Shown: positions 16,145-60,143, numbered from the stretch's first letter. The stretch: DNA of 64,000 bases from an uncultured Gemmatimonadales bacterium (GCA_963821525.1 CAWGED010000005.1:1-64000), one strand, 5' to 3'. Notes: a model not told the origin generated them from the sequence alone. Numbers and translations are program-made.

Positions 16145-16149
16145 ACCAC

Positions 16150-18443: not shown

Positions 18444-18742
18444 ATGACCGAGAATGAAGAATCCCTGAATGTCGCCATCCTTCGCCTGAACGGACGAGCC
18501 TGGGGTATTGCCGCGGGGATGTTGCTCGGCGGCGGGCTGTTCATTGCAACCAACATTCTGGTCCTGAAGGGCGGACCGACGGTGGGGAAGCACCTCCGAC
18601 TACTGTCGGTGTTCTTTCCCGGCTACAGCGTGACCTTCGTGGGCAGCGTCATCGGCTTCATCTATGCCTTTGTGCTGGGCTACGCGGTCGGACGCCTCAT
18701 CGGCGGGTGTATACAACAAGCTGGTGGGGCCGCGCGACCTGA
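18444..18742 (+). CDS. Small membrane protein (3' end uncertain, frameshift)
   Basis: RLNGRAWGIAAG, LLSVFFPGYSVTFVGSVIG, continues GVYNKL in another frame. Confidence 0.65.
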
Positions 18743-18752
18743 AGCGGGTCGC

Positions 18753-21723: not shown

Positions 21724-21803
21724 GTGGTATTTTCCTTGCTGCTGGCCGCCTGGATCGCTGAATCGCCTGAGGCGGCACTAACACAATTCATGCCCGGGTC
21801 CGA

Positions 21804-22709: not shown

Positions 22710-22716
22710 GTCCGCC

Positions 22717-27006: not shown

Positions 27007-27038
27007 GTCGCACCCTTTGTCGATTCGCTGACCACGTG

Positions 27039-28812: not shown

Positions 28813-28831
28813 GTGTCGCCATGGAGGATCG

Positions 28832-29655: not shown

Positions 29656-29680
29656 CCTTTCCTTCGAAGAGGCTCCACTG

Positions 29681-33602: not shown

Positions 33603-33603
33603 C

Positions 33604-35493: not shown

Positions 35494-35517
35494 CTCGGGC
35501 TTTGTCGGGAGCCAACC

Positions 35518-37266: not shown

Positions 37267-37368
37267 TTACTGGACTCCTCGACTGGGTGGGTACTTGCGA
37301 AGCCTTGGGCGGGGCATGGCTTCTGCCTTCGGGGTGTCCAGCTTTCGTTCGTTTCGCCGTCCAGGCGA

Positions 37369-40706: not shown

Positions 40707-40722
40707 TGGCACGGGGATTGCC
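40707..40722 (+). promoter_or_regulatory. Sigma54 (-24/-12) promoter upstream of the small peptide and sulfatase-like array
   Basis: TGGCAC-GGGGA-TTGCC, near-consensus TGGCAC-N5-TTGC in a noncoding gap. Confidence 0.75.
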
Positions 40723-40894
40723 AACCAAACTTGCCTCAACCCGGCGCTTGCAGAGCCGCAGCCGGCGAGGTTGGGTAACTAACGCGGTAGTCCTCAGCGG
40801 CCCGGCCGGCGTCGTTCCGACGCCAGGTCATGAATAGGTCTCCGGACAGGCCTTCTGTCTGGAATTCGCACGAAAGGGTTCGGCTTCCGTGACG

Positions 40895-41052
40895 ATGCAT
40901 CGACTCGGCTTCAGCCTTGTTCTCTACGTCGGTCCCGATCAGATCCTTCCGCTGACCTCCATCCTCGGCGCGTCGGCGGCGCGCTCATGATTTTCTGGCG
41001 CCAGGTTGTGGGTCTCTTCCGGCGAATTCGCTCCGTCTTCGTTCGGGAATAG
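40895..41052 (+). CDS. Small single-TM peptide with YVGP motif (about 52 aa if one missing base is restored)
   Basis: MHRLGFSLVLYVGPDQILPLTSILGA / GGALMIFWRQVVGLFRRIRSVFVRE*; as written, frame 1 stops after 31 aa; not in the ORF track. Confidence 0.65.
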
Positions 41053-41122
41053 CGGTCAGCATTGGCAGTGCGGGCCTCTGCGGCATGCGGAGGGGGTCCG
41101 CAGTGCGCTATAATCCCGTCTA

Positions 41123-42984
41123 ATGTCCCTCCCCAAGCCGGATCTCGCGCGGCCACCCCAGGAACCTCCCGACTGGAGATTCCGCTGGTTCATCATGGCC
41201 GCCGTGTCCCTGGCGCTCGCTTGTGGACTCTGGAAGCCTTGGCTTCCCTCCTACTGGGGACTCGCCAAGGAATCTTGAGCTGGAAGACGGGAAATTCGGT
41301 GAAGGTCCTGATAGCGGCTCCAGCCGTTTATCTCCTGGTCTTCCTTCCTGCCGCCATTCTCTTCGCCCTGCTCGACCGAGCGCTGAAGCAACGCTGGGCG
41401 GACGTCGCCATGATCTTCAGCTTCATCTCGCTGCTCGGCATTTCCGTCACCACTCTGATGCGTCCATGGTTTTCCGCCGGCACTTCTGTGCTGCTGGGGT
41501 TGGGCATGGCATCGGTGGCCCTCCGGATCTACGCCTCCAATCGCACCCGGTGGGGCTTTGCCCTGGTGAGAAGTGCGCCGTGGCTCGTGGCCGCGGCGAT
41601 GCTGATCGGAGTGATTGGCACCGGGTCCACGGGAATCGCCGAGCGGCTCGCGATCGCGCGCCTGCCCGCGGTCCCGGCTTCAGCGCCCAACGTGTTGCTG
41701 ATCGTGATGGATACCCAGCGCGCCGACCACCTCACCGCGTATGGATACTCCCGAGCCACCACTCCTCGGCTGGGGCGTCTCGCCGACGAGGGGGTCAGAT
41801 TCACATGGGCCACTTCGCCTGCCGTTACGACGCTGCCGTCTCATTCCAGCATGATGACGGGACAACTGGTCGGTGAACACGGCGCCGGGGTGAACAGCCG
41901 GCTGTTCCTCGATCGCCGGTTTCCTACCCTCGCCGAACAGATGCGGGTCCGGATACCTGACCGGGGGGTTCGTGGCCAATACGTATTGGACCGGACGTCA
42001 TACCGGGCTTAACCGGGGATTCATTCACTACGAGGACTTCTACGGGGGCCTGATGATGGGTTCACCCGGACCGTGATGGGCCGCGCCATCGCCTATCAGG
42101 TCTTTCCGATGATCGGACAGGTCGATATTCCGGGTCGCAACGCGCGGAAGATGTGAACCGCGAGCTACTCGGCTGGCTCGACCGTCACAGCGGTCGGCCC
42201 TTTTTCGCGTTTCTCAACTATTTCGACGTTCACGCCCCATATCGTCCTCCGCCCGGCTGGGCGGGCCGGTTCTCTTCCCAGGGCGACTCGGTCGCCCGCA
42301 CTCGAAAGATCGAGATCGGCGCGTGGAACGAAGGAACGGTACCGGATTCGGCCGTGCTGGCGGCCTGGCGGACTGTTACGACGAATCGCTGCTCTACCTT
42401 GACCATCAGATCGGTGTCTTACTCGACAGTCTTGCGGCGCGGCACCTGCTGGAGCACACCATCGTGATTGTGACCGGTGATCACGGCGAGAGCTTCGGGA
42501 GCACGGCACGGTGCACCACGGCGCCACGCTGTATCTCGAGCAGATCCGAGTCCCCCTAATTCTCTGGGGACCGGGCCGCATTCCCGCCGGGAGAAAAGTG
42601 GATCGCGCGGTCGATCTGCGCGCGATTCCCGCTACGGTGCTGGAGGTGGCTGGTCTGCCGGCAGCGGGGTTCCCCAGACGGTCGCTTCTCACCTACCTGG
42701 ATCCGGCCGATTCACCGCCGAGCCGGCCCTCTCCGAGGGTCCTCGCGTCCCGGGCAATCCTCCTACCTGGCAGACGGGAAAAGGATGGGTGAAATCGGTC
42801 GCGACTCAGCGCTGGCACCTGATCGAGTTTGAGTCGGGCAATCGTGAGCTGTACGATCTCCAGGCCGATCCGGCAGAGTTGCGAGACCTGGCAGCAGTCC
42901 CCGAGTTGCGGGACACACTGACGGTGCTGGAGCGGGGACTCCCCGGTCCCTTGGGTGCCAGATCGTTCCAGGAGTCCCCGGTGA
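41123..42984 (+). CDS. Membrane-anchored sulfatase-like (alkaline phosphatase superfamily) protein 1, frameshifted
   Basis: N-terminal TMs; PNVLLIVMDTQRADH, TTLPSH, NYFDVH, GDHGE; TATAAT at 41109-41114 just upstream. Confidence 0.85.
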
Positions 42985-44797
42985 CCGAGCCCCCGGTCCG
43001 CTTCACCGGGTTCCGGTTGGTCGGGTTCGCCTTCGCGATCGGCCTGCTCTTCGGGTTCATCGAGGCCGGCCAGGCCGCGCTTTGATTCCTGGTTTTCTGC
43101 GCTCTCGACTGGCGCACGGCGACCGGCTATCCGGTACTGTGGGTCGGTCCCCTGTTTTATGGCGCCGCTTTCGCAGTGTGTGGGGCGCTCGCCGCCCTGG
43201 GCGCACTGGTGCTGCCCCGCGTGCCATGGGACATTCTCCTCCGGCCGGGACTCGCGCTGCTCGGCGGTTGGCTCGCCGTTGAGCTTCACCCCGTCCTGTT
43301 CAGTCAAATCACTTCGGCATTGATAGGTATCGGCCTCGCAGTGGTTCTTACCCGAGCCTATCGGGCGCGGAGAGAGCGCTGGTTCCTCGGGCGCTCAGTA
43401 TCCTGCCGCTCCTGATCGTTCTCGTGACCTGGCCGCGGCCGGCGCGTGGCTCGCGACGATACTGCACGAGCGCTCCCGTCTCGCGGCGCTCCCTGCCATT
43501 TCCGGCGAACGCCCGAACCTGATCCTGTTGGTGATTGACACCCAGCGCGCGGACCATCTCTCGTTTCATGGCTATTCGCGCCCGACCTCGCCCAATCTGG
43601 ATCGTTTTGCCGGACAGGGCTGGACGTTCGACAACGCGACTGCCAGCGCGCCTTGGACTCTGCCCAGTCACGCCACCATGATGACCGGTCACCCGCTGGC
43701 CGACCACCGGGCCGGCGTGGCGAAGCGCCCGTTCCTCGATGACCGGTTCCCCACGATCGCCGAAGCGCTCGGTCATGCCGGCTACGCTACCGGCGGCTTT
43801 GTCGCCAACGTCTTCCGGTGCGGCCGCCGTACCGGCATCGATCGGGGGTTCATACACTACGAGGATTATTTCGGACATCCCGGCGACGCGATCGCCCGCA
43901 CGGTGTTGGGCCGGTGGCTCGCCTACCACGCGCTTCCGGCCCTGGGCCGGCGCGACATTCCCGGCCGCAAGAGTGCCGCCGACGTAAATCGCGAGATGCT
44001 CCAGTGGATCGACGGGCTCAAGGGCCGCCCGTTTTTCGTTTCGCTAACTACCTGGATGTTCACAAACCGTTTCGCCCACCGGCTCCCTACCTCGGCCGGT
44101 TCTCGGGAACTACTCACTTGTCGCGGGCTCCCAGAGAGCCGATGATCGATATCGGAGCCCAGGGCGCCGAGCTCCGGCGGGAGTCTCCGGAGGAGATTCA
44201 GCGGGACATCGACGGCTATGACGAGTCGATTCTCTACCTCGATGCCCAGCTCGGGGAACTGTTCACCGCTCTGGAGCAGCGTGGGTTACTGCAGCGCTCC
44301 CTTGTGATCGTCACCAGCGACCACGGCGAAGCCTTTGGAGACCACGGACTCTTCTCCCATGGCAACAGTCTGTATCGCGATCAGATCCACATCCCTCTGA
44401 TCATGCACTGGCCCGGTCATCTCGACGTCGCGCGCTGGCATCAGCGGTGGGGCTCGATCAGATCGCGCCGACACTGGCGGAAGCGGCCGGACTCACGCAG
44501 GTGACATTCCCCTCACGCTCGCTGTTCGCGCCAGCGGATTCAGCTGCAACTGCGATGTCGCAGGTCGCCGGACGGACTGGGCTGCCGGCGGAGCTCCCGG
44601 TCTCCCGTGGCTGGCTCGCGGCGTTGGTCAACGATCGGTTCCACTACATCCGCTCGCAGGCGGGCACCGCGGAGCTGTTCGACATCACCCGTGATCCCGG
44701 GGAAGAGCACAACCTCGCCTCTGATTCGAGCTTCGCCGGAACCATGAAGGCCCTCGGAGATCGGCTCCACCGCCTCATGCCCAGGCCCATTCAATGA
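42981..44797 (+). CDS. Sulfatase-like protein 2, frameshifted
   Basis: TMs; VIDTQRADH, WTLPSH, NYLDVH, SDHGE, HGNSLY. Confidence 0.85.
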
Positions 44798-46612
44798 GTA
44801 TTTCGTCCGGACGGAGCGGCCCGGTCGTACGGTTGGCACTGTGGTTCGGCCTTGCTACCGGTTTCGGGGAAGTGATACTCCTCGGCCTGCGCCGCTATCT
44901 GCTGCATCGCTTCCTTTTTCTCGGGCAAGACGCGGCGTGGATGGTGCCGCTGGCGGATGCGCTGTGTTTTTCGCGGTCGGCCTGCTGCTCGCCTTGGCGC
45001 ATCGGTGGTGGCCGGGACGATTCACGGCGCCGGCGGTTGCCGGTGTGCTGGCAGGACTCTCGATCTTCGCCCTGCTCCTCATGTACGGTCCGTTGCACCA
45101 AGTGGCGTCGATCCTTATCGCGGTTGGCGTAGGCTACCAGGCCTCGCGGTTTCTCGCTCCCCGTTTCGATCGTTTTCTGGCGGTGGTTGGGCGAACGCTT
45201 CCGGTGCTCGTCGTCCTGCTGCTGGTGACGGCGGGGACGGTTCGCGGGCTCACGCTGTGGAACGAACGCCGAGCGGCCCGCCTGCGGCCTGCGCCCGTGG
45301 CGGGTGCTCCCAACATCCTGCTCATCGTCCTGGACACGGTGCGCTCCCTCAGCCTGAGTGTGTATGGCTACGAACGGGTGACCACCCCCGAGCTGGAACG
45401 CTGGGCGCCCAATGCGGTGCGCTTTGCCCGGGCTCTTTCCACCGCGCCGTGGACCCTGCCTTCCCACTCCACGATGTTCACCGGCCATTTCCCCCACGAG
45501 ATGACCGCCGACTGGCGCACGCCGCTCGACGGGCGCTATCCCACTCTGGCCGAGGTGCTCGAATCCCACGGATATCGGAGCGCGGGATTCGTCGCCAATA
45601 CGATGTACTGCAGCTACGAGACCGGGATACGGCGCGGCTTCGCGCATTACGAAGACTATCCCGTGAACCTGGGCCGCATCCTGTTCAGCTCCACGCTGGG
45701 CAAGCTGGTCAGCGTGAGCCCCTTCTTCCGCGATCGCGCGATCCGCAAGCGAGCGGCCGAAGTCAATCGTGAATTCCTCTCGTGGCTGGACAGAATCGTG
45801 AACCGGGGCCGTTCTTCGCCTTTCTCAACTACTACGATGCGCACGGTCCCTACCAGCCGCCCGCGCCCTTCGACCAGAAGTTCGGCGACGCCTCGCGGCG
45901 CAAGGAGCTGGAGCAGATGCGGGAAGATGCTCCCGCCCTCCAATGGCCGCCGGACGTGATTCAAGCCGCGAAGGACGCCTATGACGGCTCGATCGCCTAC
46001 ATGGACGCCGAGCTGGGAAACTTGTTCCACGAGCTGGATCGGCGCGGGCTCACCCAGAATACTCTGATCATCGTGACTTCCGACCACGGAGAGGAGTTCG
46101 GGGAGAACGGGGTCTTCTGGCACGGCAACAGCCTGTACCGCCCCTCCGTGCAGATCCCCCTGCTGATGAAATTGCCTGGTGGACTCCCCGCCGTCCGCGT
46201 AGTGGATGATCCGGTTTCACTCCGCGATCTGGCGGCCACGATCATGTCCGTCGCCCTGCCCGGCGTGGCCCACCCCTTTCCAGGTGCGAGCCTGAGCCGC
46301 TACTGGCTGTCGGAGAGACGGGATTCGGCGGCAACTGCCGACACCCTGCTCCAGGAGGTGAACTTCGATCCCAGGCTGCCGAGCAATACCCCGGTTTCCA
46401 AGGGCCCGATGCGCGCCGTCGTCTTGGATGGCGGGCGGCTAATCAGGCGGGGAGATGGCTACGAGGAGTTGTTCGATTTCAACCGCGATTCCTCGGAAAC
46501 CAGTAATCTTGCGACCTCCCCCGAGGCTGGCGCTCGGCTCGAACAGCTTCGTGGGGCGCTCAAGGCACTGGTGCCAGTGCGGGCCCAGGCCAACAGCACG
46601 CTTCGCCCATGA
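44794..46612 (+). CDS. Sulfatase-like protein 3, frameshifted
   Basis: TMs; PNILLIVLDTVR, WTLPSH, NYYDAH, SDHGE, HGNSLY. Confidence 0.88.
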
Positions 46613-46691
46613 GCCGGGCCACTGCTGGGGAGACACCAGTCGCCGCAGCGACCAACGATTCACACTGACCTGACGCTCGGGTCGGACACCC

Positions 46692-48490
46692 ATGATCTCA
46701 CCAGCCGCACCACGACCGATCACAGCCCCTGCGGCCGCTCGAGACTCTGACGCTTGCTGCCTGGTTCGGACTGCTCGCCGGAATAGGTGAGGCCGTGGTG
46801 CTCACTTTCCGCAAGTTCGTTCTGCATGCCTCGGTGCTGCGTAACCTGGACATGCTGTGGACCGGTCCGCTCGCCTCGATGGTGCTGCTTTCCTGCCTCG
46901 GGATTCTTTTCCTGTTGTTGTCCCGGGTGTTACCGAGGCTGATCACATGGCGTTTCATCGTGGGCGTCTTTGCGGTGTTCGCCTTCCTTCCGATGCTCTT
47001 GGCCGCGGAGCAGCTGTACCGTGTCGCCGCTGGCCTCCTGGCGATCGGTCTGGGCGTTCAGACTCTACGCATCGTTGCTCCTCGTCGAGAGCGATTCGAA
47101 CGGCTGGTTCACAGGTCGCTCTGGGCCTTGGGACTCGCTGTCGCGCTGGTCGCCGGTGGCCTGCGAGCCTCGTGGGCGCTCCGGGAACGGCGCGGGCTGG
47201 CAGCTCTGCCGGCCGCGTCGAGGGGATCGCCGAACGTGCTGCTGTTGGTGCTCGATACAGTCGCGGCTTTGCGCCTCAGCCTGTATGGCTATCCTCGACC
47301 GAACACGCCTCACCTTGAAGAGTGGGCCCGGCGCGGAGTCCGATTCGATCGCGCCATGTCCACAGCCCCATGGACGCTGCCGTCTCACGCTTCGATCCTG
47401 ACTGGTCGCTGGCCCCATGAACTCAGCGCTGACTGGCTCGCTCCGCTCGATGGGACCTACCCGACCCTGGCCGAGGTGCTCGGAGCTCATGGGTATGCCA
47501 GCGCCGGCTTCGTGGCGAACTCCTATTGCAGCCGCGTCTTCGGGCTGCAGCGGGGCTTCCAGCACTATGAAGATTTCCCCGCGACCCCGGCACAGATTCT
47601 CTTCAGTTCGGCATTGGGCCGGCTGCTGGTGCCGAGCTACGGGTCCGGTTTCACAAGGTGGTTCGGCCCGCAGATGCGATCAACGGCGAGCTTCTGCACT
47701 GGCTCGACGATCGTCCCAAGAATCGGCCCTTCTTCGCCTTCCTGAATTACATGGATGCGCACGATCCCTATGAGCCTCCACCCCCATATGAGGAGCAGTT
47801 CAGCGACCCTGCCTCAATCCGGCTGGTCCATGGCCTTCGCCATGATCGAGTGATCGGCTGGTCTCCCGCCGAGGCTGAGGCCGCCAAGGGCGCCTACGAT
47901 GGTGCGTTGGCCTACCTCGACTCCAGGCTGGGAGCACTGTTCAGCGAGTTGGAACGGCGGGACTCCTGGCAAATACGATCGTCATTGTGACGGCAGATCA
48001 CGGTGAGGAATTCGGTGAACATGGGGTCTTCTACCACGGCAACAGCCTGTATCAGACGGTGGCTCGGGTTCCGTTGATCATCACCTGGATTGGCCACCTG
48101 CCCGCCGGGCGGATCTGACCCCGGTCTCCCTGCGAGACCTGGCGGCGACGGTGATGGATCTGACGGGAGTCGATTAGTCCAGCCTTTCCCCGGCCGTTCC
48201 CTGGAACGTTTCTGGGATCAGCGAGCAGATAAGGCTCCCGTCTCCGACACTCTGCTCATGAAAGTGAGCTATGTACCGAAACTCCCTCGCGGTACACCAG
48301 TGAGTCGGGGGACCATGCACGCGGTACAACTCGGCGGGTACCGGTTGATCGTCAACGGCGATGGGGTGGAGGAACTCTACGATTCGAGACAGCCTCGAGC
48401 GGAACGACCTTCAAGGAACCAGCGCTGGCCGATACCCTCGCGGCCCTCCGCGCGTCGCTCCCAAGTGCGACAAAGTCCGGGTTGGAATGA
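46692..48490 (+). CDS. Sulfatase-like protein 4, frameshifted, ends approximate
   Basis: TMs; PNVLLLVLDTVA, WTLPSH, NYMDAH, ADHGE, HGNSLY. Confidence 0.85.
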
Positions 48491-48497
48491 ACCGACC

Positions 48498-50322
48498 ATG
48501 ACAGCCTCCTCGCCTGTCTCAACCGTCGGCCGAGATCCGGATTGCGGGACTGCATCTCGCTCTGTTTGGCCTCTGGTTGGGTCTGGTCTACGGCTTGATC
48601 GAGGCGCTCGAGGCCATGCTGTGGACTCTGATCCCGGGCGGGCTCTCCTGGCAGAACGGGACCGCTCCACCGATCCTCTGGGTGGCTCCGCTGGTCTATG
48701 GGGGGGCCTTCGGCTTGTGGCACTCCTTGTCGCGGGCCTCTCGAAACTTCTGCCGCGAGTCCGCTGGGACCTCGTCCTGGTCTTCCTGCTGGTTGCCGTC
48801 GGGGCCTAACTGGCGACTCGCTGCAAGGCCTGATCCTTGATGAGCGGGCTTGCCTATTGTTGGGGCTGGGTTCGGTGTTGCTCTGACCCGGGTCTACCGG
48901 CGGCGTCCCGAATGGTGGCTTTCCACCGCACGGGGAACCTTGCGAAGGCTCCTCGGTGCGGTGGCACTCACCGCGGTTCTAATCACCGTCGGCACACGGT
49001 TAGCCGAGGCCGTCGCCTCGCCAGCCTGCGGCAGCCCCAACGGGTCGCCCCAATATCCTCCTTCTCGTCATCGACACCCAGCCGGCCGATCACCTCTCCG
49101 TCTATGGATATGGCCGGCCGACCTCACCGACGCTGGAGCGTCTGGCCCAGGAGGGATGGCTCTTCGAAAACATGACCTCCAGTTCCTCGTGGACATTGCC
49201 GAGTCATGCCACGATGATGACCGGTCGGCAACAGCACGAGCACCGAGCCGGAGTCCTGCGGCGGCCCTATTTGGATCACAAATTTCCAACGATCGCCGAA
49301 CTTCTGCGGCAGGAGGGATACGCGACCGGCGGGTTCGTCGCGAACATTACTGGTGCGGAAGGGAAACCGGCTTGGGTCGGGCTTCATCCGATACGAGGAC
49401 TATTTCCAGAACATGGGCGACGCGCTGGTCCGCACCGTGCTGGGGCGGCGCCTGGCGTACGACGTGTGGCCCAAGCTGGGTCCCCGGAATATCCCCGGAC
49501 GGAAGTCTGCTGCCGACATGAATGCCCATCTGCTGAGCTGGATTGACGGGCTTCACGACCGCCCCTTCTTCGGCTTCGTGAACTACTTCGATATTCACGG
49601 GCCCCTCTTTCCACAGCCGCCGTATCTGGGGCGGTTCTCCGACGTCTCTCGCCGTCCGGCAGGTGAGCCGGGCGTGGCGCTAGGCGCCATCACTGGTGAG
49701 TTCAAACGGCTCACCCCGGAGCAGATCCAGGCCGATATCGATGCCTATGATGAATCGATCCTCTACCTCGATGCCCAGATCGGATCATTGCTGGATGAGC
49801 TGAAGAAGCGGGGCAAGCTGGACAACACCTTGATCATCCTCACCAGCGATCATGGGGAGAGCTTCGGAGAGCACGGCTTCTACTTCCACGGCCACAGTCT
49901 CTATCGGGAACAGGTGGATATCCCGCTGCTGCTCCGCTGGCCTGCCCGGCTACCGCCGGTACACACCGCACCGAGCCAGTGACCTGGAACAGATCGCGGC
50001 GACTATCGCTGAGGCTGCGGGGCTGCCGAGCGGTGCTGTGCCGGGCGTGTCGCTCTTGGGCAAACCAGATTCGGCCGCCGTCGGAATCGCCGAACTGGCG
50101 CAGCGTTCAACCGTGCCGGCTTCCTGGCCCGCATCCCGGGGCTGGCTCGCGTCGCTCACGACCGATTCATGGCATTTCATCATCCTACAGTCTGGTGAGG
50201 CCGAGCTTTACGACTTCCGTCGAGATCCACAGGAGCGGACCAATCTCGCCGCCGACTCGGTTCACCTGGTCGAGCAGTTTCGCGAGCGGTTCAAGCGTCT
50301 GGTACCGATTCCGATTCGATGA
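48498..50322 (+). CDS. Sulfatase-like protein 5, frameshifted
   Basis: TMs; PNILLLVIDTQPADH, WTLPSH, NYFDIH, SDHGE, HGHSLY. Confidence 0.85.
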
Positions 50323-52130
50323 AGGCCTCGCCTGCACCGGCACAGCGACTGACACCCCGCGCCATCCTCTTACTGGGACTCTCGGCTGGTCTGCTCACGG
50401 GTCTAGTTGAAGCGCTGGTGTTCCTATCGCGACGGTTGGTGCTCGGCCGCCTGGTTCACGTTAGCGCCCATTTCGGATGGATGGCCCCGATCGGGGACCT
50501 GGTACTCTTCGCCGGACCTGCGCTCGTACTGTCCCTGTGCGCTCGACTCTGGCCGAGGCTGATGCCGGCGCGACTGGCGTTCTTCCTGTTTGCTTTTCTA
50601 GGGTTCGCCGCCTTGTTGCTGATGGAACCGGGGTTTCACAAGGTGGCGGTCCTGGCCCTGGCAGCAGGCCTGGCGTGGCAGACCGCCCGAATGCTCTCAC
50701 GCAGAACTGGAGCGTTCGAGCAGCGGTCAGGGATTGTCATGGCTACGCTTGCAGCGTGCGTGACGCTGATCGGTGTAATGACGGTCGGAATACAGGCGGT
50801 GCGGGAGCGAATGGCAATCGGACGTTTACCTGCAGCGGCGGGGAATCGCCCGAACGTGCTCCTGATAATCCTCGACACGGTCAGGGCAAAGAGCCTCAGT
50901 CTTTACGGCTACAATCGAGACACCAGCCCATCGCTGACCCGTCTGGCGGGACGCGGAGTACGGTTCGAGCGGGCCTTCTCGACCGCGCCGTGGACGTTGC
51001 CCTCGCACGCCAGCCTGTTGACCGGTGACTATCCCCACCAACTGTCGGCGGACTGGATCGAGCCACTGGATCGCAAGGTTCCCACCCTGGCTGAGCGGTT
51101 CAGTGCCGAGGGTTATCTGACCGGTGGATTGGTTGCCAACGTGGGCTACTTGAGCTGGGAATTCGGACTGAACCGGGGGTTCGCTCACTATGAGGACTAC
51201 CTCTTTCGTCCGCGGGACATTCTCGAGTCAACCTCGATCGGGAGACAGCTGGACTACAGTTACCTCCTCCGTGACTTGCTACATACCGACCAGCATCTGG
51301 TTCGGATCGACGCGCCGTCCATCAGCCGGCGCTTCCTGAGTTGGGTAGACAAGCGCGGAGACCGCCCCTTCTTTGCTTTCCTCAACTATTACGACGCGCA
51401 CGGTCCTTATCTCCCGCCCTCGCCATGGGACCGTCGCTTCGGTGCGGCCCGTCAGGATAACCGCAGCACACTTCATCGTTTTCTGAGCCGGCCGTTCGGT
51501 CCGCTTCCCCAGGCGGTGGTCGACCGGGAGATGGAGCAATACGATGGTGCCCTCGCCTATCTCGACGACCAGATCGGTAAGCTCATCGAGGAGCTGGATC
51601 GTCGCCATCTGCTCGATCACACCATCGTGCTCCTGACCGCGGATCATGGCGAAGAGTTCGGTGAGCATGGCCTGTTCGATCATGGAAATTCGCTCTACCG
51701 GCCCTCGGTTCAGGTCCCCCTTCTGGTCGTGTACCGTGGGGTGGCTCCGGCGGGCAGGCAGGTGGAGCAGCCAGTGACCCTGCGGGATGTCGCCGCCACC
51801 CTGGCCGACTTGGCTGGACTGCCAGCTGGGGAGGTTCCGGGGGTCTCTTTGGCCCGATTCTGGCGAGAGAGTCCCCCGGTTGAGCCCCGTACGCAAAGCC
51901 CTGTCATTTCAGAGGTTAGCAAAGGGATCCGAACCCCGCCCTGGTATCCGGTCAGCAAGGGGGACATGCGTTCATTGGTAGAAGGGGGCCATCGCTACAT
52001 CTTGGGTGGGGATGGCACGGAGAAGCTGTTCAGTCTGAGCGACGTTTGGGAACGAAATCCCCTGTCTCTGTCGGATTCGTTGGTGCTACCCTTTCGGAAA
52101 GAACTTGCCCGCTGGCCATGGCACAGATAG
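50319..52130 (+). CDS. Sulfatase-like protein 6 (intact, 603 aa)
   Basis: About five N-terminal TMs; PNVLLIILDTVR, WTLPSH, NYYDAH, ADHGE, HGNSLY. Confidence 0.92.
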   Translation: MKASPAPAQRLTPRAILLLGLSAGLLTGLVEALVFLSRRLVLGRLVHVSAHFGWMAPIGDLVLFAGPALVLSLCARLWPRLMPARLAFFLFAFLGFAALLLMEPGFHKVAVLALAAGLAWQTARMLSRRTGAFEQRSGIVMATLAACVTLIGVMTVGIQAVRERMAIGRLPAAAGNRPNVLLIILDTVRAKSLSLYGYNRDTSPSLTRLAGRGVRFERAFSTAPWTLPSHASLLTGDYPHQLSADWIEPLDRKVPTLAERFSAEGYLTGGLVANVGYLSWEFGLNRGFAHYEDYLFRPRDILESTSIGRQLDYSYLLRDLLHTDQHLVRIDAPSISRRFLSWVDKRGDRPFFAFLNYYDAHGPYLPPSPWDRRFGAARQDNRSTLHRFLSRPFGPLPQAVVDREMEQYDGALAYLDDQIGKLIEELDRRHLLDHTIVLLTADHGEEFGEHGLFDHGNSLYRPSVQVPLLVVYRGVAPAGRQVEQPVTLRDVAATLADLAGLPAGEVPGVSLARFWRESPPVEPRTQSPVISEVSKGIRTPPWYPVSKGDMRSLVEGGHRYILGGDGTEKLFSLSDVWERNPLSLSDSLVLPFRKELARWPWHR

Positions 52131-54000
52131 TTGCGGGAGTCCCGTTGCAGTCCCGAAAAGTGTGCGACGAGGGGGGGGCGGATCGGTCCGCGCTTCAGCC
52201 GTCGCTTCTGATCTTGGCTGTGTGGTTCGCGCTCGCCGCCGGGCTGCTGGAAGGGGCCTGGAGGGTGTTTCAGCGCCTGGGATTGCACCAGTTCGTTGGC
52301 CTGCCGTTCGATATCGTCTGGATGGCTCCGACAGTCGATTTTCTCTGGTTGTTGCTACCGACCCTCCTGCTGATACTGGCCCGTCGGCTGACTCCGGGGA
52401 AACTGCCATTCGGCGCCCTGGTCGGAATCCTGGGTGGCCTGGCCGCTTTGCCCCTCTTCCTGCTGGTCACGTCCATGCATAAGGCGGTCGCGCTGGTGCT
52501 CGCCGTGGGCGTGGGCATTCAACTGAGTCGTCTGGTGTCGGGACGGGCGCTGGCGGTTGCTGCCTTCATGCGGCGGACCCTGCCGCTGCTGGGCATTCTG
52601 TTCGCCAGCGGGGCCAGCCTGGTGTTGAGCATCGAATGGTTGAATGAACGTGCCGCATCGACCCGCTGGCCCGCCGCATCTCGAGACAAACCCAATGTTC
52701 TTCTGCTGGTCTGGGACACGGTACGAAACGATGAGTCAGCGTCGCGGGATACACCCGGCCTACCACACCGTTTCTCGAGTCAGTGGCCCGGGAGGGAGTT
52801 CGCTTCGAGCATGCGTTCAGCACCGCGCCCTGGACCCTCCCCTCCCATGGGAGCATGTTCACCGGTCAGTGGCCCTTCATGTTTTTCCGGGGGATCTGGG
52901 CGCCCGTGGAGATGCCGACACCGACCCTGGCGGAGGCGCTCTCTCAGGCGGGCTATCGGACCGGCGGGTTTACCGCCAACCTGGCCTACACCACCCGGGA
53001 GCACGGGATTCACAAGGGCTTTGCGCATTACGAGGATTTCAGCCGCACGATGGGGACAGCGCTCGCCAAGTCGCGCATCAGCCGGGTGATCCTGGATCCG
53101 CAATGGGTACGCCACATCATCGGATACTACGATTTGATGGGGCGGAAGCGGGCGGACGTGATCAACACCAGTTTCCTGCGCTGGCTGGACCAGGATGGCT
53201 CCAGGCCATTCTTCGGATTTCTCAATTATTTCGACGCCCACGCGCCCTATATCGCTCCCTCACCGTTCCGGGAACGGTTTGCTCTCGCCCGGCGGGGAAA
53301 GTATGAGATCATTCCGCAGCCGGGACAGGGAGGCGGTCCCTCGCGTACCCCTGAGGCCCACCGATACTGGCGCGCCGAATACGACGCCCTCATCGCATCC
53401 CTGGATGACGCGACCCGGAGGCTGTTCGCCGAGCTGGCCCACCGAGGTCTGCTCGACAATACCATCGTCATCATCACCTCGGACCACGGCGAGCAGTTCG
53501 GCGAACATGGCAAGTGTTGCCACATGAACACCCTCTATCGGGCGGTCCTGGAGGTCCCACTCTTGATCCGGTTTCCACCTGCCGTGCCGGCCAATCAGTC
53601 CATTCCAGCCCCGGTGAGTCTTCGGGACATACCGCGCACCGTGCTCACCCTGACCGGTGTGGCCGCGGAAAGTATCCCTGGGCGCTCCCTCACTCGCTTC
53701 TGGAAACCGGAACCCGCTGCGCCCGATTCGTTGATTCTGGCCGAGTTGTCCACCTCGCGCCGTGGTAACCTCGGCCCTCACGCGGTGGTGTCCAACGGTG
53801 TCTTCTACATTCGGGCAGGAAAGGATTCGGTTGAGCTCTACGACCTGCTGGACGACACGGCCCAGGCCACCAGCCTGCATCGTCATCCGGCTCGCAGCGC
53901 CGATCTGGCTCGCTTCAGACATGTGACGGACAGCCTCGCCGAGCTTTACCGGCGGAGGAGCCACACAACCGACGAAGTCGAAGAGGAGGACGAGCAGTGA
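52118..54000 (+). CDS. Sulfatase-like protein 7, frameshift near 52730
   Basis: TMs; PNVLLLVWDTVR, WTLPSH, NYFDAH, SDHGE, CCHMNTLY. Confidence 0.88.
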
Positions 54001-55827
54001 GCACGGACCCTTCGACTGCACTGGAGGTGCCGAGCCACAGGCTGATCGGGTGGGGCGCCGCGCTTGGCATCGGCGCCGGTCTGATCGAGGCCGCGATGGC
54101 GACCATTCGGTCGGGTCGCACCGCGCTCTTGATTGGGAGGGTGCGGCGACTTTGTCTGGTTGGCCCCGCTGGTTGGTCTGCTGCTCGGCTTGAGCAGCGT
54201 GATTCTCCTGATCGGAGCGCGCCGGCTGTGCTCCCCGCGCGTTTACCCCTCGGGTGATCCTCACCATCGTCGGCACCGTCGTTTTCCTAAGCCCGATTTT
54301 TCTTTTCCAGCGGATGCATCGACTCGCCGCGCTGGTGCTGGCGCTGGGAATCGGGTTCCAGCTGGCGGCCTGGCTCACTCGGCGAGCCGCCGCATCGCGC
54401 TGATGCACTGGATGCTTCCACTTGGTAATGTTCTGCTGGATCGCTGGCGGACTGGGATTGGAGGTGGTACGGAACCTGCGCGAGCGCGCCGCCATCCGAA
54501 GGCTCCCACCCGCCGAAGCCGATCGTCCGAACGTCTTGCTCCTGGTGCTGGATACGGTTCGCGGAATGAGCCTGAACCTGTACGGGTACCCGCGAGCTAC
54601 CACTCCTGAGTTGAAGAAGCTGGCTGAGCGAGGCGCCCGGTTCGACTACGCGGTGGCGCCGGCGCCATGGACCCTCCCTTCTCACGGGTCGATCTTCTCT
54701 GGACGTTTACCCCGGGAATTCAGCACCACCTTCCGTACCCCGTTCGACGAGAAATTCCCCGTGCTCGCCGAGGCGCTCGCCGGTCACGGCTACGTGACCG
54801 GTGGGATTCGTCGCCAACATCTGGTATTGCGCGGCTGGCCACGGTCTGGAGCGGGGATTCCTCGCAGTATCGCGACTACCCCCGCACCACGTGGCGAGTG
54901 GTCGAAGGGTCGGCACTCGGTCGTTGGCTCTTCGAGCAGGCCACCGTCCGCAGGTTTGTCGGCTGGTACGAGATGCTTTGGCGCAAGAACGCCGGACGGG
55001 CGGTGAACGAATTTCTCGCAGTGGGAAGCGAAGCCGCGCGATGGACGTCCCTTCTTTGCGTTTATCAATTTCTTCGACGCCCACAACCCATTCGTCCCAC
55101 CGGCGCCTTTCGATACCATGTTCGCGACCGTCCAGGACGACACTATGATCCGCGCTTCAAGATGCCGGAATTTTCCGACCTCACGGCCGATGAGATTGAG
55201 TTCACCCGGGACCAGTACGAAGGAGCTATCGGATACATCGACCGGTCCGTCGGGCATATGTTGACCGAGCTGGATCGGCGCGGCGTCTTGAAGCACACGA
55301 TCGTTGTGATCACCTCCGACCACGGCGAGCAGTTCGGCGAGCACGAGCTCCTGGGGCATGGCAACAGCCTGTATTCGCAAGTGCTCCACGTTCCGCTCGT
55401 GATCGTGTATCCCCCCAAGGTGCCTGCCGGCTCGGTCGTGGCGCCCCCCGTAGGGCTTCGCGACATCCCGACCACGGTCCTTGACCTTGCTGGTCTGCCG
55501 AACGATCGCGGCCTTCAGGGGCGCTCCCTTACCCGCTTCTGGGAACGTCCAATGGACTCCGGGGACGTGGATGAGGTCATCGTTTCCGAAATGCCGGGCG
55601 CGAGCGCTGCCAATGCCGTCTCTCTCATTGCGGACGGGCATCACTACGTCCGCTGGTGGAAGCGGGCGGAAGGCGTCTACGACCTTCGAACCGATCCGAC
55701 CGAACAAACCAATCTGGTCGGCACTCCCATAGGAGATTCGCTGCTGACCCGGTTCCGGGACATGGCGGCTGAACTGTCCCAGAAGTTTCCCGGGCTCAGG
55801 AAGGGGGAGGCGAATGACACGCTCTGA
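53997..55827 (+). CDS. Sulfatase-like protein 8, frameshifted
   Basis: TMs; PNVLLLVLDTVR, WTLPSH, NFFDAH, SDHGE, HGNSLY. Confidence 0.85.
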
Positions 55828-56024
55828 GGCCCGAGCGGCCGGAGTCATTCGACGGTCTGGTGTCATTACATTTGCGACCGATGATGACTCGCTCGAGCTC
55901 TATGGCGCCAAGGCTCGTCCACCCCCATTTCGTTGGGTAGTGCTGAAATCGACGATGACCACCGCTGACGACTGCTGCGCGGTGACTGCGAACCACGGCA
56001 GCGAAGCTAAGAAAGGTGAGGCGA

Positions 56025-57886
56025 GTGACACATTCTGACGTGATGGCCCCAGGCCACGGCGCCGCTCCTCGGGCGGCCCAGGCACAACCTGTGGCCGAAG
56101 AGCGGATGAACATCGTGATCGGCGGCCATGTCGACCACGGGAAGAGCACGATCGTGGGCCGGCTGCTTGCCGACACTCATTCGCTGCCCGAGGGGAAGCT
56201 CGAGGCGATCAAGGCGCTCTGCGAGCGCACCGCCAAGCCGTTCGAATACGCCTTCCTGCTCGACGCGCTTAAGGACGAGCAGTCGCAGGGCATCACGATC
56301 GACGCAGCGCGGGTCTTCTTCAAGACGGCCAAGCGCCACTACATCATCATCGATGCGCCAGGGCACATCGAGTTCCTGAAGAACATGGTCACCGGCGCCT
56401 CCCGCGCCGAGGCTGCCCTCCTGGTCATCGATGCCAAGGAAGGAGTCCAGGAGAATTCCCGCCGCCACGGCTACATGATGTCCATGCTCGGCATCAAACA
56501 GATCGCCGTGCGTGGTCAACAAGATGGATCTGGTCGATTACAGCCAGCGCCACTACGAGGGGATCGTCCGGGAGTACACCGATTTCCTGAACCGGATCGG
56601 GGTTCATCCCGCGTGCTTTATTCCCGCCGCGGGACGGGAAGGCGACAACATCGCGAGCCCGTCGCCCAAGCATGAAGTGGCACACGGGTCCGACGGTGCT
56701 CCAGGCGCTGGATCAATTCAAAAGCGAAGGTCCCGCGGTAGGCCAGCCGTTCCGGATGCCGGTACAGGACGTCTACAAGTTCACCAAGCAGGGAGACGAC
56801 CGCCGCATTATCGCCGGAACCGTGGAAACCGGAACGCTGCGGGTCGGAGATGAAGTCGTCTTCTATCCTTCCGGCAAGCGCAGCCGGGTAAAGTCGATCG
56901 AGTCCTTCAACACGCCGGTCCGGCAGCAGGCGGAGGCGGGCCAGGCTGCGGGCTTCACGCTGTCGGAACAGATCTACGTCGCGCGGGGTGAGCTGGCCAC
57001 GGTCGCGACCGAGCCCAAACCCAAGGTCACTACCCGTCTCCGGGTGAGCCTCTTCTGGCTCGGCAAACAGCCCTTCATCAAGAAGAAGGATTACCTGCTC
57101 AAGCTGGGCTCGGCCCGCGTGCCGGCCCGTCTCGAAGAGATCACCCGGGTAATCGACGCCTCCAACCTGAATACCAGCGACACCAAGGACCGGGTGGACC
57201 GCCACGCTGTGGCGGAGTGCGTCCTCAAGCTCAATCGAGCGCTCGCTTTCGATCTCGCCGAGGAAATCGACGCGACCAGCCGCTTCGTCCTGGTGGACGA
57301 CTACGAGATCCGCGGCGGAGGCATCGTCCGCGAGGCGCTGCCCGACCGGCAGACCGAAATTCGCGAAAAGGTGATGCTCCGGAACTACAAGTGGGAGCCG
57401 AGCATCATTCAGCCGGAGCGCCGGGCAGAGAAGTACAGCCAGAAAGCCTCTCTGCTCCTCATCACCGGTGCCAAGGAGAGCGACCGCAAGTCGCTCGGCA
57501 AGGAGGTCGAGGCCCGGCTGTTCGAGGACGGACGCGTGGTCTACTTCCTCGGGATCGGGAATGTGCTCTACGGCATTGATGCCGACATCGAGCGCAAGTC
57601 CGAGAACCGGCAGGAGCACCTCCGCCGGCTGGGTGAGGTCGCCAACCTCATGCTCGATTCCGGGGCGATTCTCATCGTGACCGCAGCCGACCTGTCGCAG
57701 GAAGACCTGGAGGTCATCAAGACATCGGTTGATCCTGACCGGATCGAAACCGTCTGGGTGGGAGACAGCGTGACGACCGACATCACCTGCGACCTGATCC
57801 TGGCCGAACAGGAGGCCGAGGAAGAGGGGGTCGAGCGGATCAAGCGTCTGTTGCAGGACAAGGGCGTCCTGTTCCGGCCCTGGTGA
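56025..57886 (+). CDS. cysN: Sulfate adenylyltransferase GTPase subunit with a degenerate C-terminal APS-kinase-like domain, 2 frameshifts
   Basis: [51 protein letters not shown]-terminal [28 protein letters not shown]. Confidence 0.9.
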
Positions 57887-59250
57887 GCATGGTGAACGAG
57901 TCCGCCTCCGCGGTTTCTCCCGACGCCCTCACCCGGCTCACCGCGCTTGCGGTGAGAGCGGGCCAGGCGGCCATGGTGCACTACCACGACGGGGTCGCGG
58001 TCCGCCAGAAGGGCGACAAGGGCCCGGTTACCGCTGCCGATCATGCATCGCACGCCGTGATCGTTGAGGAGTTAGCGGCCTGGGACTCCTCGATCCCCAT
58101 CATTTCGGAGGAAGGGGACATTCCCGGGTACGAAGCCCGCCGGGCTTGGCGCCGATTCTGGTTGGTGGATCCGCTCGACGGCACCAAGGAATTCATCCAG
58201 AGGAACGGCGAGTTCACGGTGAACATCGCCCTGATCGAAAACGGAGTTCCTGTCCTCGGTGTGATCTATGCGCCGGCGTTGAGCCTGCTCTATTACGCCG
58301 GTCAGGGACTCGGCGCGTGGAAGCGCGAGGCTGGTGGTCAGCCGGAGCGTATCCTTTCTCGCCCACCGCTGCCGGGCCATGCCCTTCGGGTGGCGGAGAG
58401 CCGGTCCCATCCTTCAGAGGAACTGGAGCAGTATCTCAAGACGATCAAGGTCGCGGACCGGGTGCCGGCCGGGAGCTCGCTCAAGTTCTGCTGGGTCGCT
58501 GAAGGAAAGGCGGATATCTATCCCCGCCTGGGCCCGACGATGGAGTGGGACGTAGCGGCCGGGGACTGCATTTTCCGTAACTCCGGTACGCATGGGCCCC
58601 GGCGCTCGTCGCTCGTCTACAACCAGCCCGAGCTCCGCAACCAGGGGTTCATCGTCGGGCTGGACGACAGCGAGCTGGACACCTCCAGCAGTCGTGGCCG
58701 CGTGCTCTGGTTTACCGGCCTCTCCGGTTCGGGCAAGAGCACCATCGCGCGGCTGGTGGTGGAAGAACTGGAACGCCGGGGTAGTCCGGTCGAATATCTC
58801 GATGGAGACACGATCCGCGATATTTTCCCGGCGACCGGCTTCACTCGCGAAGACCGCGACCAGCACATCCGCCGGGTGGGTTACCTGGCCAGCCGCCTCG
58901 AGCGCCACGGAGTGACGGTAATCGCGTCGCTGGTGTCCCCCTACCGCGCTTCACGGGACTTCGTGCGCGGGCTGTGCCGGGACTTCGCCGAGGTCTGGGT
59001 CGCGACGCCGTTCGAGGAATGTGAGCGTCGAGATGTCAAGGGACTCTACGCCAAGGCCAGGCATGGCGAGATCAAGAACTTCACCGGGCTCGACGACCCG
59101 TACGAGCCTCCGGTGACGCCGGAGCTGACCATTCAGACTACGGGGAGAACTCCCGAGGAGTGTGCCGGGGAGGTCATCGGATGGCTGGATCAGATGCCAA
59201 CCGTAGTCGCGGAAGCCGGCAGGGTGCCGCAGCTTCACGAGAACTATTGA
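57883..59250 (+). CDS. cysQ-cysC: In-frame fusion of 3'(2'),5'-bisphosphate nucleotidase CysQ and adenylyl-sulfate kinase CysC
   Basis: [35 protein letters not shown]; then [36 protein letters not shown]; one uninterrupted 455-aa frame. Confidence 0.92.
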
Positions 59251-59260
59251 GGACTTAGTC

Positions 59261-60143
59261 ATGGATCATATTGATCAGCTGGAACACAGGAGCGTGCACA
59301 TCTTCCGTGAAGCCTATGCCAACTTCAAGAGCCTCTGCATGCTCTGGTCGATCGGCAAGGACAGCACGGTCCTGCTCTGGCTCGCGCGCAAGGCCTTCTT
59401 CGGGCATGTGCCGTTCCCCCTCGTTCACATCGATACCTCGTTCAAAATTCCGGAGATGATCCGCTATCGGGATCGCCTCGCGGCCGAGTGGAACCTGAAC
59501 CTCATCTACGGGCAGAACGAAGGCGCGCTGCGGGAGAAGCGCACGTTCCCCGACGGGGCCGTGGATCGCATCACCTGCTGCAGTCTGCTCAAGACTGAAG
59601 CGCTGAAAAGGACCCTTTCCGGGGAATGGCCGCGCTACCGCTTCAATCACGCGAAGAAGGCCTACGAGCTCGACAAGAACACCGAGCCCTTCACCGGCGT
59701 CATCGTCGGCGCCCGGGCCGACGAGGAAGGCAGCCGCTCCAAGGAGCGGTATTTCTCACCCCGGAACCGCGAGAACTCCTGGGATGTGGGCGACCAGCCG
59801 CCCGAGTTCTGGAACCAGTACAAGACCGACTTCGCGCCGGGCACCCACCTGCGGATCCACCCGCTGCTGGACTGGACCGAGCTGAACATCTGGGAATACA
59901 TCGAGCGGGAGAACATCCCGACGGTGTCGCTCTACTACAACCACGGCGACGGGATCAGGTATCGCTCGCTGGGTTGTGGACCCTGCACCAAGCACGTCGA
60001 GTCCGACGCGCAGAAATGTTCAGGAGATCATCGTCGAGCTGAAGACCGGCAAGTTCGCAAACATCGCGGAGCGGTCGGGCCGGGCCCAGGACAAGGACGA
60101 TGGCGGCGGGCTCGAGACTCTTCGGCGCGACGGGTACATGTGA
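59261..60143 (+). CDS. cysD: Sulfate adenylyltransferase subunit 2, frameshift near 60015
   Basis: [47 protein letters not shown]; true tail [15 protein letters not shown]. Confidence 0.92.

What the first reader, a model, noticed from the sequence alone, without database searches (positions are those of the whole stretch)
40707..60143. Candidate new glycan-decoration system: eight Thr-nucleophile membrane 'sulfatases' coupled to a PAPS-supply module
Seen: a sigma54 promoter, a small peptide, eight co-oriented and mostly stop/start-overlapping paralogues (about 14.7 kb), then cysN, cysQ-cysC and cysD. All eight have T-L-P-S-H where true sulfatases have C/S-x-P-x-R. Known: formylglycine is made only from Cys or Ser, while Thr nucleophiles behind a multi-TM anchor typify alkaline-phosphatase-superfamily transferases such as LtaS and EptA. 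CysDN+CysC make PAPS, and CysQ removes PAP, the by-product of sulfotransfer. No cysH/cysIJ, no formylglycine maturase and no P-loop sulfotransferase is visible in the window. Inference: these are extracytoplasmic transferases rather than hydrolases, installing sulfate (or a phospho-form group) at different positions of the glycan made by the adjacent cluster.
Basis: partly seen in the sequence, partly recalled or inferred. Interest (0 to 1): 0.9.

Follow-up and report, generated by a model that had tools for sequence, protein, structure and literature searches.

The report
Candidate membrane relay for glycan sulfation
Eight look-alike 'sulfatase' genes, a tiny membrane protein with one fixed tyrosine and the genes that activate sulfate appear to form an undescribed relay that carries sulfate across the bacterial membrane and onto surface sugars; the case so far rests on genomes only.

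Summary
Observation confirmed. A Gemmatimonadales genome carries a sigma54 site, a 54-aa peptide, eight 5-TM sulfatase-fold paralogues with T-L-P-S-H, then cysN, cysQ-cysC and cysD. The frameshifts are most likely read errors.

The overlooked peptide is the key. It has an invariant Tyr (Y-x-G-P) and one TM helix. It tracks the enzymes in two phyla: 30 of 32 Gemmatimonadota carriers, and the same 10 of 121 Blastocatellia-class genomes. It often lies directly before cys genes. A membrane-anchored SULT-type sulfotransferase (unlinked, contig C19) occurs in 23 of the 32 carriers. A soluble Thr-type phosphodiesterase-like pair occurs in 6 of the other 9, never with it. Two near-complete carriers have PAPS genes but no PF00685/PF13469 or cysH hit.

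Best reading: PAPS to loader to membrane carrier (probably the peptide Tyr) to periplasmic TLPSH enzymes to glycan. About 0.68 for sulfate transfer, 0.45 with the peptide as carrier.

Precedents are partial (haloarchaeal Agl30/31, DltX). No biochemistry was possible, the membrane-crossing step is unexplained, and only 5 of 69 enzyme loci have cys genes nearby. The scan met this enzyme family before on other DNA (e1-3620461) and read it as phospho-transfer.

The parts
40707..40721 (+). sigma54 -24/-12 consensus site
   Evidence: Sequence; 4 strict matches in the genome, kept in G001
40895..41052 (+). Membrane microprotein, about 54 aa: invariant Tyr in Y-x-G-P, one TM helix, basic C-terminal tail; candidate sulfate carrier. 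One-base deletion in this assembly
   Evidence: 985 homologues; Tyr invariant in 115 of 115; no NCBIfam family
41123..42960 (+). TLPSH paralogue 1 (frameshifted; end approximate)
42966..44797 (+). TLPSH paralogue 2 (frameshifted; start approximate)
44794..46612 (+). TLPSH paralogue 3 (frameshifted)
46690..48484 (+). TLPSH paralogue 4 (frameshifted; start approximate)
48490..50322 (+). TLPSH paralogue 5 (frameshifted; start approximate)
50319..52130 (+). TLPSH paralogue 6, intact, 603 aa (P0001): 5 TM plus sulfatase-fold domain; D186, T226, H230, H361, D442, H443, H455 conserved
   Evidence: (pLDDT 94)
52140..54000 (+). TLPSH paralogue 7 (frameshifted; start approximate)
54000..55827 (+). TLPSH paralogue 8 (frameshifted; start approximate)
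56016..57886 (+). cysN with a degenerate C-terminal APS-kinase domain (one frameshift)
57883..59250 (+). cysQ-cysC fusion (PAP phosphatase plus APS kinase)
   Evidence: TIGR01331 and TIGR00455 both over cut-off
59261..60143 (+). cysD (frameshift near the 3' end)
1..40561 (.). Adjacent glycan cluster (GT2, GT4, PMT_2/GT-C, Wzx-like, UbiA, epimerases, deacetylases, AsnB-type amidotransferases); likely source of the acceptor; runs off the contig start
   Evidence: 100 of 189 upstream stop-to-stop segments scanned

Best explanation
A relay that sulfates envelope glycans on the outer face of the inner membrane. (1) CysDN and CysC make PAPS and CysQ removes PAP (established chemistry; genes shown). 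(2) A cytoplasm-facing loader moves the sulfuryl group from PAPS to a membrane carrier. In this genome the loader is the TM-anchored SULT-type enzyme at C19:339319-340430; in other lineages it is a soluble pair of Thr-type PF01663 proteins (co-occurrence shown, activity inferred). (3) The carrier is most likely the invariant Tyr of the Y-x-G-P microprotein, giving a reactive aryl sulfate (inferred; how it reaches the outer face is unexplained). (4) The eight 5-TM TLPSH enzymes take the sulfate, probably through a covalent His or Thr intermediate at a single-metal site, and each puts it on a different sugar position or glycan (architecture shown by model, activity inferred). Steps 1, 2 and 4 without naming the carrier: about 0.68. 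With the peptide Tyr as carrier: 0.45.
For: Peptide and enzyme co-occur. In 284 same-class genomes all 30 peptide carriers have the enzyme, and 30 of 32 enzyme carriers have the peptide. In genus g13 the same 7 of 10 genomes, and in g61 the same 3 of 5, carry peptide, enzyme and SULT. In a second phylum the same 10 of 121 genomes carry both. Peptide-anchored neighbourhoods: the next gene is TLPSH in 16, PF01663 in 14, a cys gene in 12 and something else in 23 of 65 metagenome loci; within 10 kb in 30 genome loci there is TLPSH in 22, cys/sat in 18, PF01663 in 10 and any of them in 29. The peptide precedes cys genes even where no enzyme is adjacent (L210-L212, L223, L227). PAPS supply is met by non-homologous genes. 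APS kinase is in 27 of 32 carriers against 105 of 252 others, and in 10 of 10 carriers of the second phylum. cysH is over cut-off in only 3 of 32. The TM-SULT rang in 24 of 301 genomes, 23 of them enzyme carriers; it keeps the SULT motifs and is closest to small-molecule SULTs. The PF01663 pair is in 6 of the 9 carriers without that SULT and in 0 of 23 with it; five non-Gemmatimonadota peptide genomes have the pair (5 of 5) and no SULT hit (0 of 5). G077 (99% complete) and G137 (one contig) have PAPS genes beside the enzyme but no PF13469, PF00685 or cysH hit. Topology: K+R is 9.7 on the N-terminus/loop 2/loop 4 side against 5.4 on the catalytic side. Paralogues are 34-53% identical to each other while orthologues stay 62-99% across genomes. 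Haloarchaeal glycan-cluster 'sulfatases' fill most of the 40 best-ranked plasmid rows and have Thr at the same column in 4 of 4 examined. Agl30/31 deletions and heterologous expression tie such proteins to glycan sulfation (PMC11980604).
Against: No biochemical evidence. The basic tail puts the peptide N-terminus, and so the Tyr, outside or in the membrane, while the SULT domain faces the cytoplasm; no conserved flippase was found (Wzx-like genes recur but are not universal). The SULT fold has a small-molecule pocket, and its best fold matches act on sterols and phenols, which suits a lipid as well as a peptide. Only 5 of 69 enzyme-anchored loci had cys genes in the fetched DNA. G012, G028, G157 and G182 carry the enzyme with no APS kinase or Sat hit, and three of them have no CysD-family hit. 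G028 and G182 hold P-loop sulfotransferases, so they may be assembly gaps; G012 (97% complete) is unexplained. 12 of 17 genomes in other classes have weaker enzyme hits and no peptide or SULT hit. Ordinary P-loop sulfotransferases lie 10-65 kb from cysC in at least six carriers and could use the PAPS. The active site lacks the Arg/Lys that bind sulfate in sulfatases and resembles phospho-transferases. Genomes are related, so the Fisher p-values overstate. The APS-kinase background rate was not measured in the second phylum.
Confidence: 0.45

Rival explanations
1. Same sulfate relay, but the carrier is a lipid or small aryl molecule sulfated by the TM-SULT (or the PF01663 pair) and flipped. The peptide is a structural or assembly subunit.
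For: The TM-SULT is closest to sterol/phenol SULTs. LtaS/EptA-type enzymes use lipid donors (recalled). It avoids flipping a charged peptide end. It fits all the co-occurrence data.
Against: It does not explain why the Tyr is invariant (115 of 115) and nearly the only Tyr (0.05 others per sequence), or why the peptide gene travels with cys genes away from the enzymes. No conserved gene for a phenolic lipid was found among recurring neighbours.
Confidence: 0.23
2. The enzymes are LtaS/EptA-like transferases of a phospho-form group. The cys genes serve ordinary P-loop sulfotransferases and sit nearby only because both belong in glycan islands. This is the reading of earlier finding e1-3620461.
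For: 5 TM, Thr and D/D/H ligands, and His in place of the sulfatase Lys; full-length structural match to PbgA/YejM (6xlp, Z 32.7, rmsd 17.5 over 472); 64 of 69 enzyme loci lack cys genes; G012 has no sulfate activation hit; 28 of 32 carriers have some PF13469 hit.
Against: It does not explain the 23-of-24 restriction of the TM-SULT to carriers, enzymes inserted between cysN and cysQC (L025, L206, L213, L214), the peptide directly before cys genes, or G077 and G137. The domain is closer to sulfatases (Z 39) than to LtaS (29.4) or EptA (28.2).
Confidence: 0.17
3. The enzymes are hydrolases that edit or recycle sulfate or phosphate esters on the cell's own sulfated glycan, which P-loop sulfotransferases make.
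For: The best sequence and fold matches are hydrolases: choline sulfatase, phosphonate monoester hydrolase, S1 sulfatases.
Against: No FGly motif and no linked FGE. Carriers without P-loop sulfotransferase hits still pair them with PAPS genes. A hydrolase needs neither a microprotein nor alternative cytoplasmic partners. Deleting the related-fold Agl30/31 lowers sulfation.
Confidence: 0.1

Closest known systems
Halobacterium salinarum Agl30/Agl31 (VNG1056C/VNG1057C), PMC11980604
   Same: Alkaline-phosphatase-superfamily, sulfatase-like proteins in a glycosylation cluster, each needed for sulfation of a different sugar; several paralogues per cluster.
   Different: One is soluble and one has a single predicted TM, against 5 TM here. 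The parts read name no donor, and 'PAPS' does not occur in the main text. No microprotein or loader is described.
LtaS / EptA / YejM(PbgA) / BcsG membrane alkaline-phosphatase-superfamily transferases
   Same: Five N-terminal TM helices, extracytoplasmic domain, Thr at the nucleophile position, one metal site.
   Different: Far below family cut-offs; catalytic domain closer to sulfatases; linked to PAPS genes, a SULT and a microprotein rather than standing alone with a phospholipid donor.
S1 formylglycine sulfatases and phosphonate monoester hydrolases
   Same: Fold (Z up to 39) and Pfam PF00884.
   Different: T-x-P-S-H for C/S-x-P-x-R, sulfate-binding Arg/Lys replaced, no linked FGE, 5-TM anchor.
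DltB-DltX-DltD and PatA-PatB tyrosine shuttles (PMC12148441, passages)
   Same: A membrane microprotein or motif with an invariant Tyr links a cytoplasmic donor to an extracytoplasmic transferase.
   Different: They carry acyl groups; the motif is C-terminal FxYxxF; an MBOAT channel loads the Tyr. Here the motif is N-terminal Y-x-G-P and no channel protein is conserved.
Periplasmic aryl-sulfate sulfotransferases (ASST; PMC13426309, passages), and the Cpz8/Cpz4 two-step relay (relay recalled)
   Same: Use of an aryl sulfate instead of PAPS, ping-pong through a covalent sulfo-His.
   Different: Beta-propeller fold, soluble donors, small-molecule acceptors.
Cytosolic SULTs (for the C19 gene)
   Same: 5'-PSB loop, catalytic His and fold.
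   Different: N-terminal membrane anchor; bacterial; distribution tied to TLPSH enzymes.

Membership tests
S1 formylglycine sulfatases | C/S-x-P-x-R motif | tested here: not met
   T-L-P-S-H in 8 of 8; T226 invariant in 105 of 105
S1 formylglycine sulfatases | Sulfatase fold | tested here: met
   (Z 39.0, rmsd 3.0, 380 aligned to 4upl)
S1 formylglycine sulfatases | Basic sulfate-binding residues (roles recalled) | tested here: not met
   H230 aligns with the motif Arg and H455 with a Lys of choline sulfatase; both conserved
S1 formylglycine sulfatases | Linked maturase (FGE) | tested here: not met
   FGE lies at C5:816884 beside a Cys-type sulfatase and on C14
LtaS/EptA/YejM transferases | 5-TM anchor with extracytoplasmic alkaline-phosphatase domain | tested here: met
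   Model, hydropathy and positive-inside count; topology predicted, not measured
LtaS/EptA/YejM transferases | Thr nucleophile position and metal ligands | tested here: met
   D186, T226, D442, H443 invariant
LtaS/EptA/YejM transferases | Family HMM cut-off | tested here: not met
   EptA 47.6 against 561 bits; YejM 35.2 against 825
LtaS/EptA/YejM transferases | Phospholipid head-group donor | not testable with these tools
   Needs biochemistry
Agl30/Agl31-type sulfatase-fold sulfotransferases | Sulfatase-like protein in a glycan biosynthesis cluster | tested here: met
Agl30/Agl31-type sulfatase-fold sulfotransferases | Orthology and shared nucleophile with Agl30/31 | not tested
   Sequences not in the text or supplement read; only four other haloarchaeal plasmid proteins were aligned, all with Thr
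Agl30/Agl31-type sulfatase-fold sulfotransferases | Required for glycan sulfation | not testable with these tools
   Needs genetics and mass spectrometry
DltX-type tyrosine shuttle | Single-TM microprotein with an invariant Tyr | tested here: met
DltX-type tyrosine shuttle | C-terminal FxYxxF motif and MBOAT partner | tested here: not met
   Motif is N-terminal Y-x-G-P; MBOAT appears in few loci
DltX-type tyrosine shuttle | Covalent intermediate on the Tyr | not testable with these tools
   Needs mass spectrometry
SULT-type P-loop sulfotransferase (C19 gene) | 5'-PSB loop, catalytic His, fold | tested here: met
   PF00685 over cut-off; K-C-G-T-T-W and K-T-H conserved; SULT1C2 E 1e-31; fold; motif roles recalled

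The most novel reading that the evidence does not exclude
Bacteria of several phyla have a dedicated pathway for sulfating envelope glycans outside the cytoplasm. A Y-x-G-P membrane microprotein is charged as tyrosine-O-sulfate by either of two unrelated loaders (a membrane SULT or a Thr-type phosphodiesterase-like pair) and feeds arrays of Thr-type sulfatase-fold transferases, each writing one sulfation site. A large set of proteins now annotated 'sulfatase' would then be sulfate writers rather than erasers.
Probability: 0.45. Interest if true: 0.92.

Novelty: categorically new. Interest (0 to 1): 0.8.

Why it matters
How bacteria make position-specific sulfated envelope polymers without recognisable carbohydrate sulfotransferases, and how activated sulfate could act outside the cytoplasm, are open questions as far as my searches and recall reach. 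This module names testable parts: donor genes, two alternative loaders, a carrier residue and the final transferases. It would extend the tyrosine-shuttle principle from acyl groups to sulfate, suggest a chemistry for Agl30/31-type enzymes, and correct annotation for a large family (5176 hits among 8000 candidates scored). Genomes now counted as rich in sulfatases, and so as degraders of sulfated glycans, may instead be producers. Regiospecific transferases that use aryl sulfates would also be useful for making sulfated glycans. The class 'categorically new' applies to the module: each part has a partial precedent, and the class would drop to a new variant if the phospho-transfer rival holds.

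Tried and rejected
Complex prediction of P0001 with the peptide (alignments A1, A3) gave 'no answer' (0.06, mark 0.32). It is no evidence either way. SULT with peptide was not folded (one job per session).

Search for longer proteins with the peptide fused: 2 hits of 140-142 aa among 8000 candidates, weak evidence against fusions. NCBIfam and the Atlas gave the peptide no family name.

The PF01663 pair was not found in this genome; the weak hit at C5:171999 is another phosphodiesterase-like frame. Wzx-like, UbiA, MBOAT and GT-C genes were considered as carrier makers or channels, but none is universal. Pseudogenisation was rejected as the cause of the frameshifts.

Ten literature searches were run. 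Those for the mechanism or motifs found nothing relevant, and one search returned only the Agl30/31 paper. The library omits most subscription papers. The Agl30/31 sequences could not be obtained, so their motif remains unchecked. Scan look-ups by words, by peptide and by relatives found nothing. No reads were laid on the window.
Full report
1. Observation. The window is the first 64 kb of contig C5 of an 81%-complete, 4.33-Mb genome; homologue names point to Gemmatimonadales. Eight T-L-P-S-H motifs lie between 41830 and 54695, followed by cysN, cysQ-cysC and cysD. Only paralogue 6 is unbroken. A near-identical metagenome contig and same-genus genomes have intact arrays, so the breaks are most likely read errors. 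The sigma54 site at 40707 is one of 4 strict matches in the genome and is kept in G001. No P-loop sulfotransferase, FGE or cysH lies in the window.

2. The enzyme. The model of P0001 (pLDDT 94) has five N-terminal helices and a sulfatase-fold domain. Charge bias favours N-in, domain-out (K+R 9.7 against 5.4). The best sequence and fold matches are choline sulfatase, phosphonate monoester hydrolase and S1 sulfatases; LtaS and EptA score lower, and PbgA/YejM is matched over the full length with poor rmsd. D186, T226, H361, D442, H443 and H455 are invariant in 105 sequences and H230 in 104. The motif Arg and one Lys of sulfatases are replaced by His. So it is not an FGly sulfatase and not a member of the named LtaS/EptA families. 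Paralogues in G004 are 34-53% identical to each other, and orthologues are much closer across genomes, which suggests old, separate jobs.

3. First test of the PAPS link. Two of the five had cysN-type genes and three had Sat-CysC fusions. The recurring neighbours were glycan genes, a pair of soluble PF01663 proteins with Thr at the same column, and a small peptide.

4. The peptide. It has about 54 residues: an uncharged start of 1-15 residues, Y-x-G-P-D, one TM helix and a basic tail. It has 985 homologues and no family name; the Tyr is invariant in 115 of 115 aligned; it is under purifying selection. In 301 genomes of the phylum it rang in 31, one of them borderline (E 1e-3) and dropped. The enzyme rang at E up to 1e-50 in 44: 32 in the window's class and 12 weaker ones among 17 genomes of other classes, none of which had a peptide hit. 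All 30 peptide genomes have the enzyme; G157 and G182 have the enzyme only. In a Blastocatellia-centred sample the same 10 of 121 genomes carry both. In 8 of the 10 stretches fetched there the PF01663 pair follows the peptide, usually with the enzyme next, and Sat lies in the same run in G412, G339 and G331. Some of these genomes may be those behind loci. Anchoring on the peptide instead (best 80 of 268 metagenome matches; 15 dropped for under 500 bases downstream; some near-duplicates), the next gene was the enzyme in 16, PF01663 in 14, a cys gene in 12 and other in 23 of 65. In 30 genome loci from 29 genomes, the counts within 10 kb were enzyme 22, cys/sat 18, PF01663 10, any 29. These searches scored a limited number of candidates per genome and can miss copies.

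5. Who loads it. One of the genome's four PF13469 hits (C19:339319-340430, one frameshift) is a SULT-type enzyme with an N-terminal membrane helix followed by a basic stretch, so it probably faces the cytoplasm. Its homologues directly follow the peptide in L143 and L144 and abut the enzyme in G028. It rang in 24 of the 301 genomes: 23 enzyme carriers (46-57% identity, G157 partial) and one weak hit (36%). Of the 9 carriers without it, 6 have both PF01663 proteins, 1 has the larger one only and 2 have neither. None of the 23 with it has the second PF01663 protein; three have the larger one alone and G028 has two divergent copies. Five peptide genomes of other phyla have the pair and no SULT hit. 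This pattern is what two interchangeable loaders would give.

6. Where PAPS goes. APS kinase is in 27 of 32 carriers against 105 of 252 other class members. G246 has cysN at a contig edge. cysH passes cut-off in 3 of 32, so assimilation is not the sink. G077 has peptide, PF01663 pair, cysN, cysQC, cysD and enzyme in one run, and like G137 shows no PF13469, PF00685 or cysH hit; other sulfotransferase families were not searched. Against this: G012, G028, G157 and G182 show no APS kinase or Sat hit, and ordinary sulfotransferases share glycan islands with cysC in several carriers.

7. Mechanism. Best supported is a relay: PAPS to loader to membrane carrier to periplasmic enzyme to glycan. An aryl sulfate is a known donor class for periplasmic sulfotransferases, which use a sulfo-His (PMC13426309, passages). 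An invariant Tyr on a membrane microprotein is a known shuttle for acyl groups (PMC12148441, passages). Shown here: gene content, co-occurrence, order, fold and conserved residues. Inferred: every chemical step. Unexplained: how the charged carrier crosses the membrane. Whether Thr226 or a His takes the sulfate is open; from recall, sulfo-Ser adducts of mutant sulfatases do not turn over, and one search found no paper to check this. The acceptor is unknown; the adjacent cluster is rich in GT-C and polyprenol-sugar enzymes.

8. Relation to what is known. Agl30 and Agl31 are sulfatase-like proteins whose deletion removes, and whose expression in Haloferax adds, glycan sulfate (PMC11980604: parts 1, 3 and 5 of 7, passages, and the text of its one supplement). 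Haloarchaeal glycan-cluster 'sulfatases' fill most of the 40 best-ranked plasmid rows for P0001, and 4 of 4 aligned have Thr, but Agl30/31 themselves were not aligned. A 2024 review lists four sulfotransferase subclasses, none of this kind, in the passages seen (PMC11625862). Searches found no description of the peptide, the motif or the module; the library is incomplete and bioRxiv supplements were closed. I confirm its active-site description but not that reading, which leaves the SULT and cys links unexplained.

9. Verdict. The feature is real and larger than reported. Sulfate transfer to glycan about 0.68 (peptide carrier 0.45, other carrier 0.23), phospho-transfer 0.17, hydrolase 0.10. 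Interest 0.8: the module is well supported across two phyla, not found in print by my searches, and reducible to a few direct experiments.

Noticed in passing
window 18024-18419 and L082:3009-3302: Two small membrane proteins with weak holin_4 scores below cut-off recur just upstream of the peptide in many Gemmatimonadota glycan clusters; role unexplained.
   Followed up: partly
window 56672-57886: CysN carries a C-terminal APS-kinase-like domain scoring far below cut-off, with no recognisable P-loop; the kinase is supplied by the CysQ-CysC fusion.
   Followed up: partly
L088:4230-9207 (G041); also L215, L217, L221: CysC-Sat fusion followed by a PHP-family 3',5'-bisphosphate phosphatase-like gene (below cut-off) in place of cysQ, and a second CysC with an unknown N-terminal part.
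   Followed up: partly
G000:C5:814660-817810: A canonical Cys-type sulfatase beside an FGE gene; a second PF00884 protein at C19:429617 was not examined.
   Followed up: no
G000 contigs C1 and C6 (L001, L002, L004): Three further P-loop sulfotransferases unlinked to the window; the one on C1 lies 1.2 kb from a contig end.
   Followed up: partly
G028:C8:1583-19614: A tandem run of more divergent sulfatase-like frames (800-950 aa), with two PF01663 proteins and a sulfotransferase hit on the same contig; possibly a related system.
   Followed up: no
control genomes: Haloferax volcanii did not ring for APS kinase or Sat, yet Agl30/31 expressed there gave sulfated glycan, so the archaeal donor may not be canonical PAPS.
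   Followed up: no
L062:5669: A second type of small membrane peptide, with Y-L-D-P-G, in a Planctomycetota locus; may be a wider family of Tyr microproteins.
   Followed up: no
L081:14225-18021, L025:7854-9713: LIC_10190-family membrane proteins inserted between the peptide or cysN and the TLPSH genes.
   Followed up: no
window 21071-32846: 87 non-triplet indels against G001 over 11.8 kb at 81% identity (some are alignment noise); ORF calls throughout this assembly are unreliable.
   Followed up: yes
L010, L048, L083, L094: TLPSH genes also sit in Wzc/Wza/exosortase-EpsI loci, so acceptors may differ between lineages.
   Followed up: no
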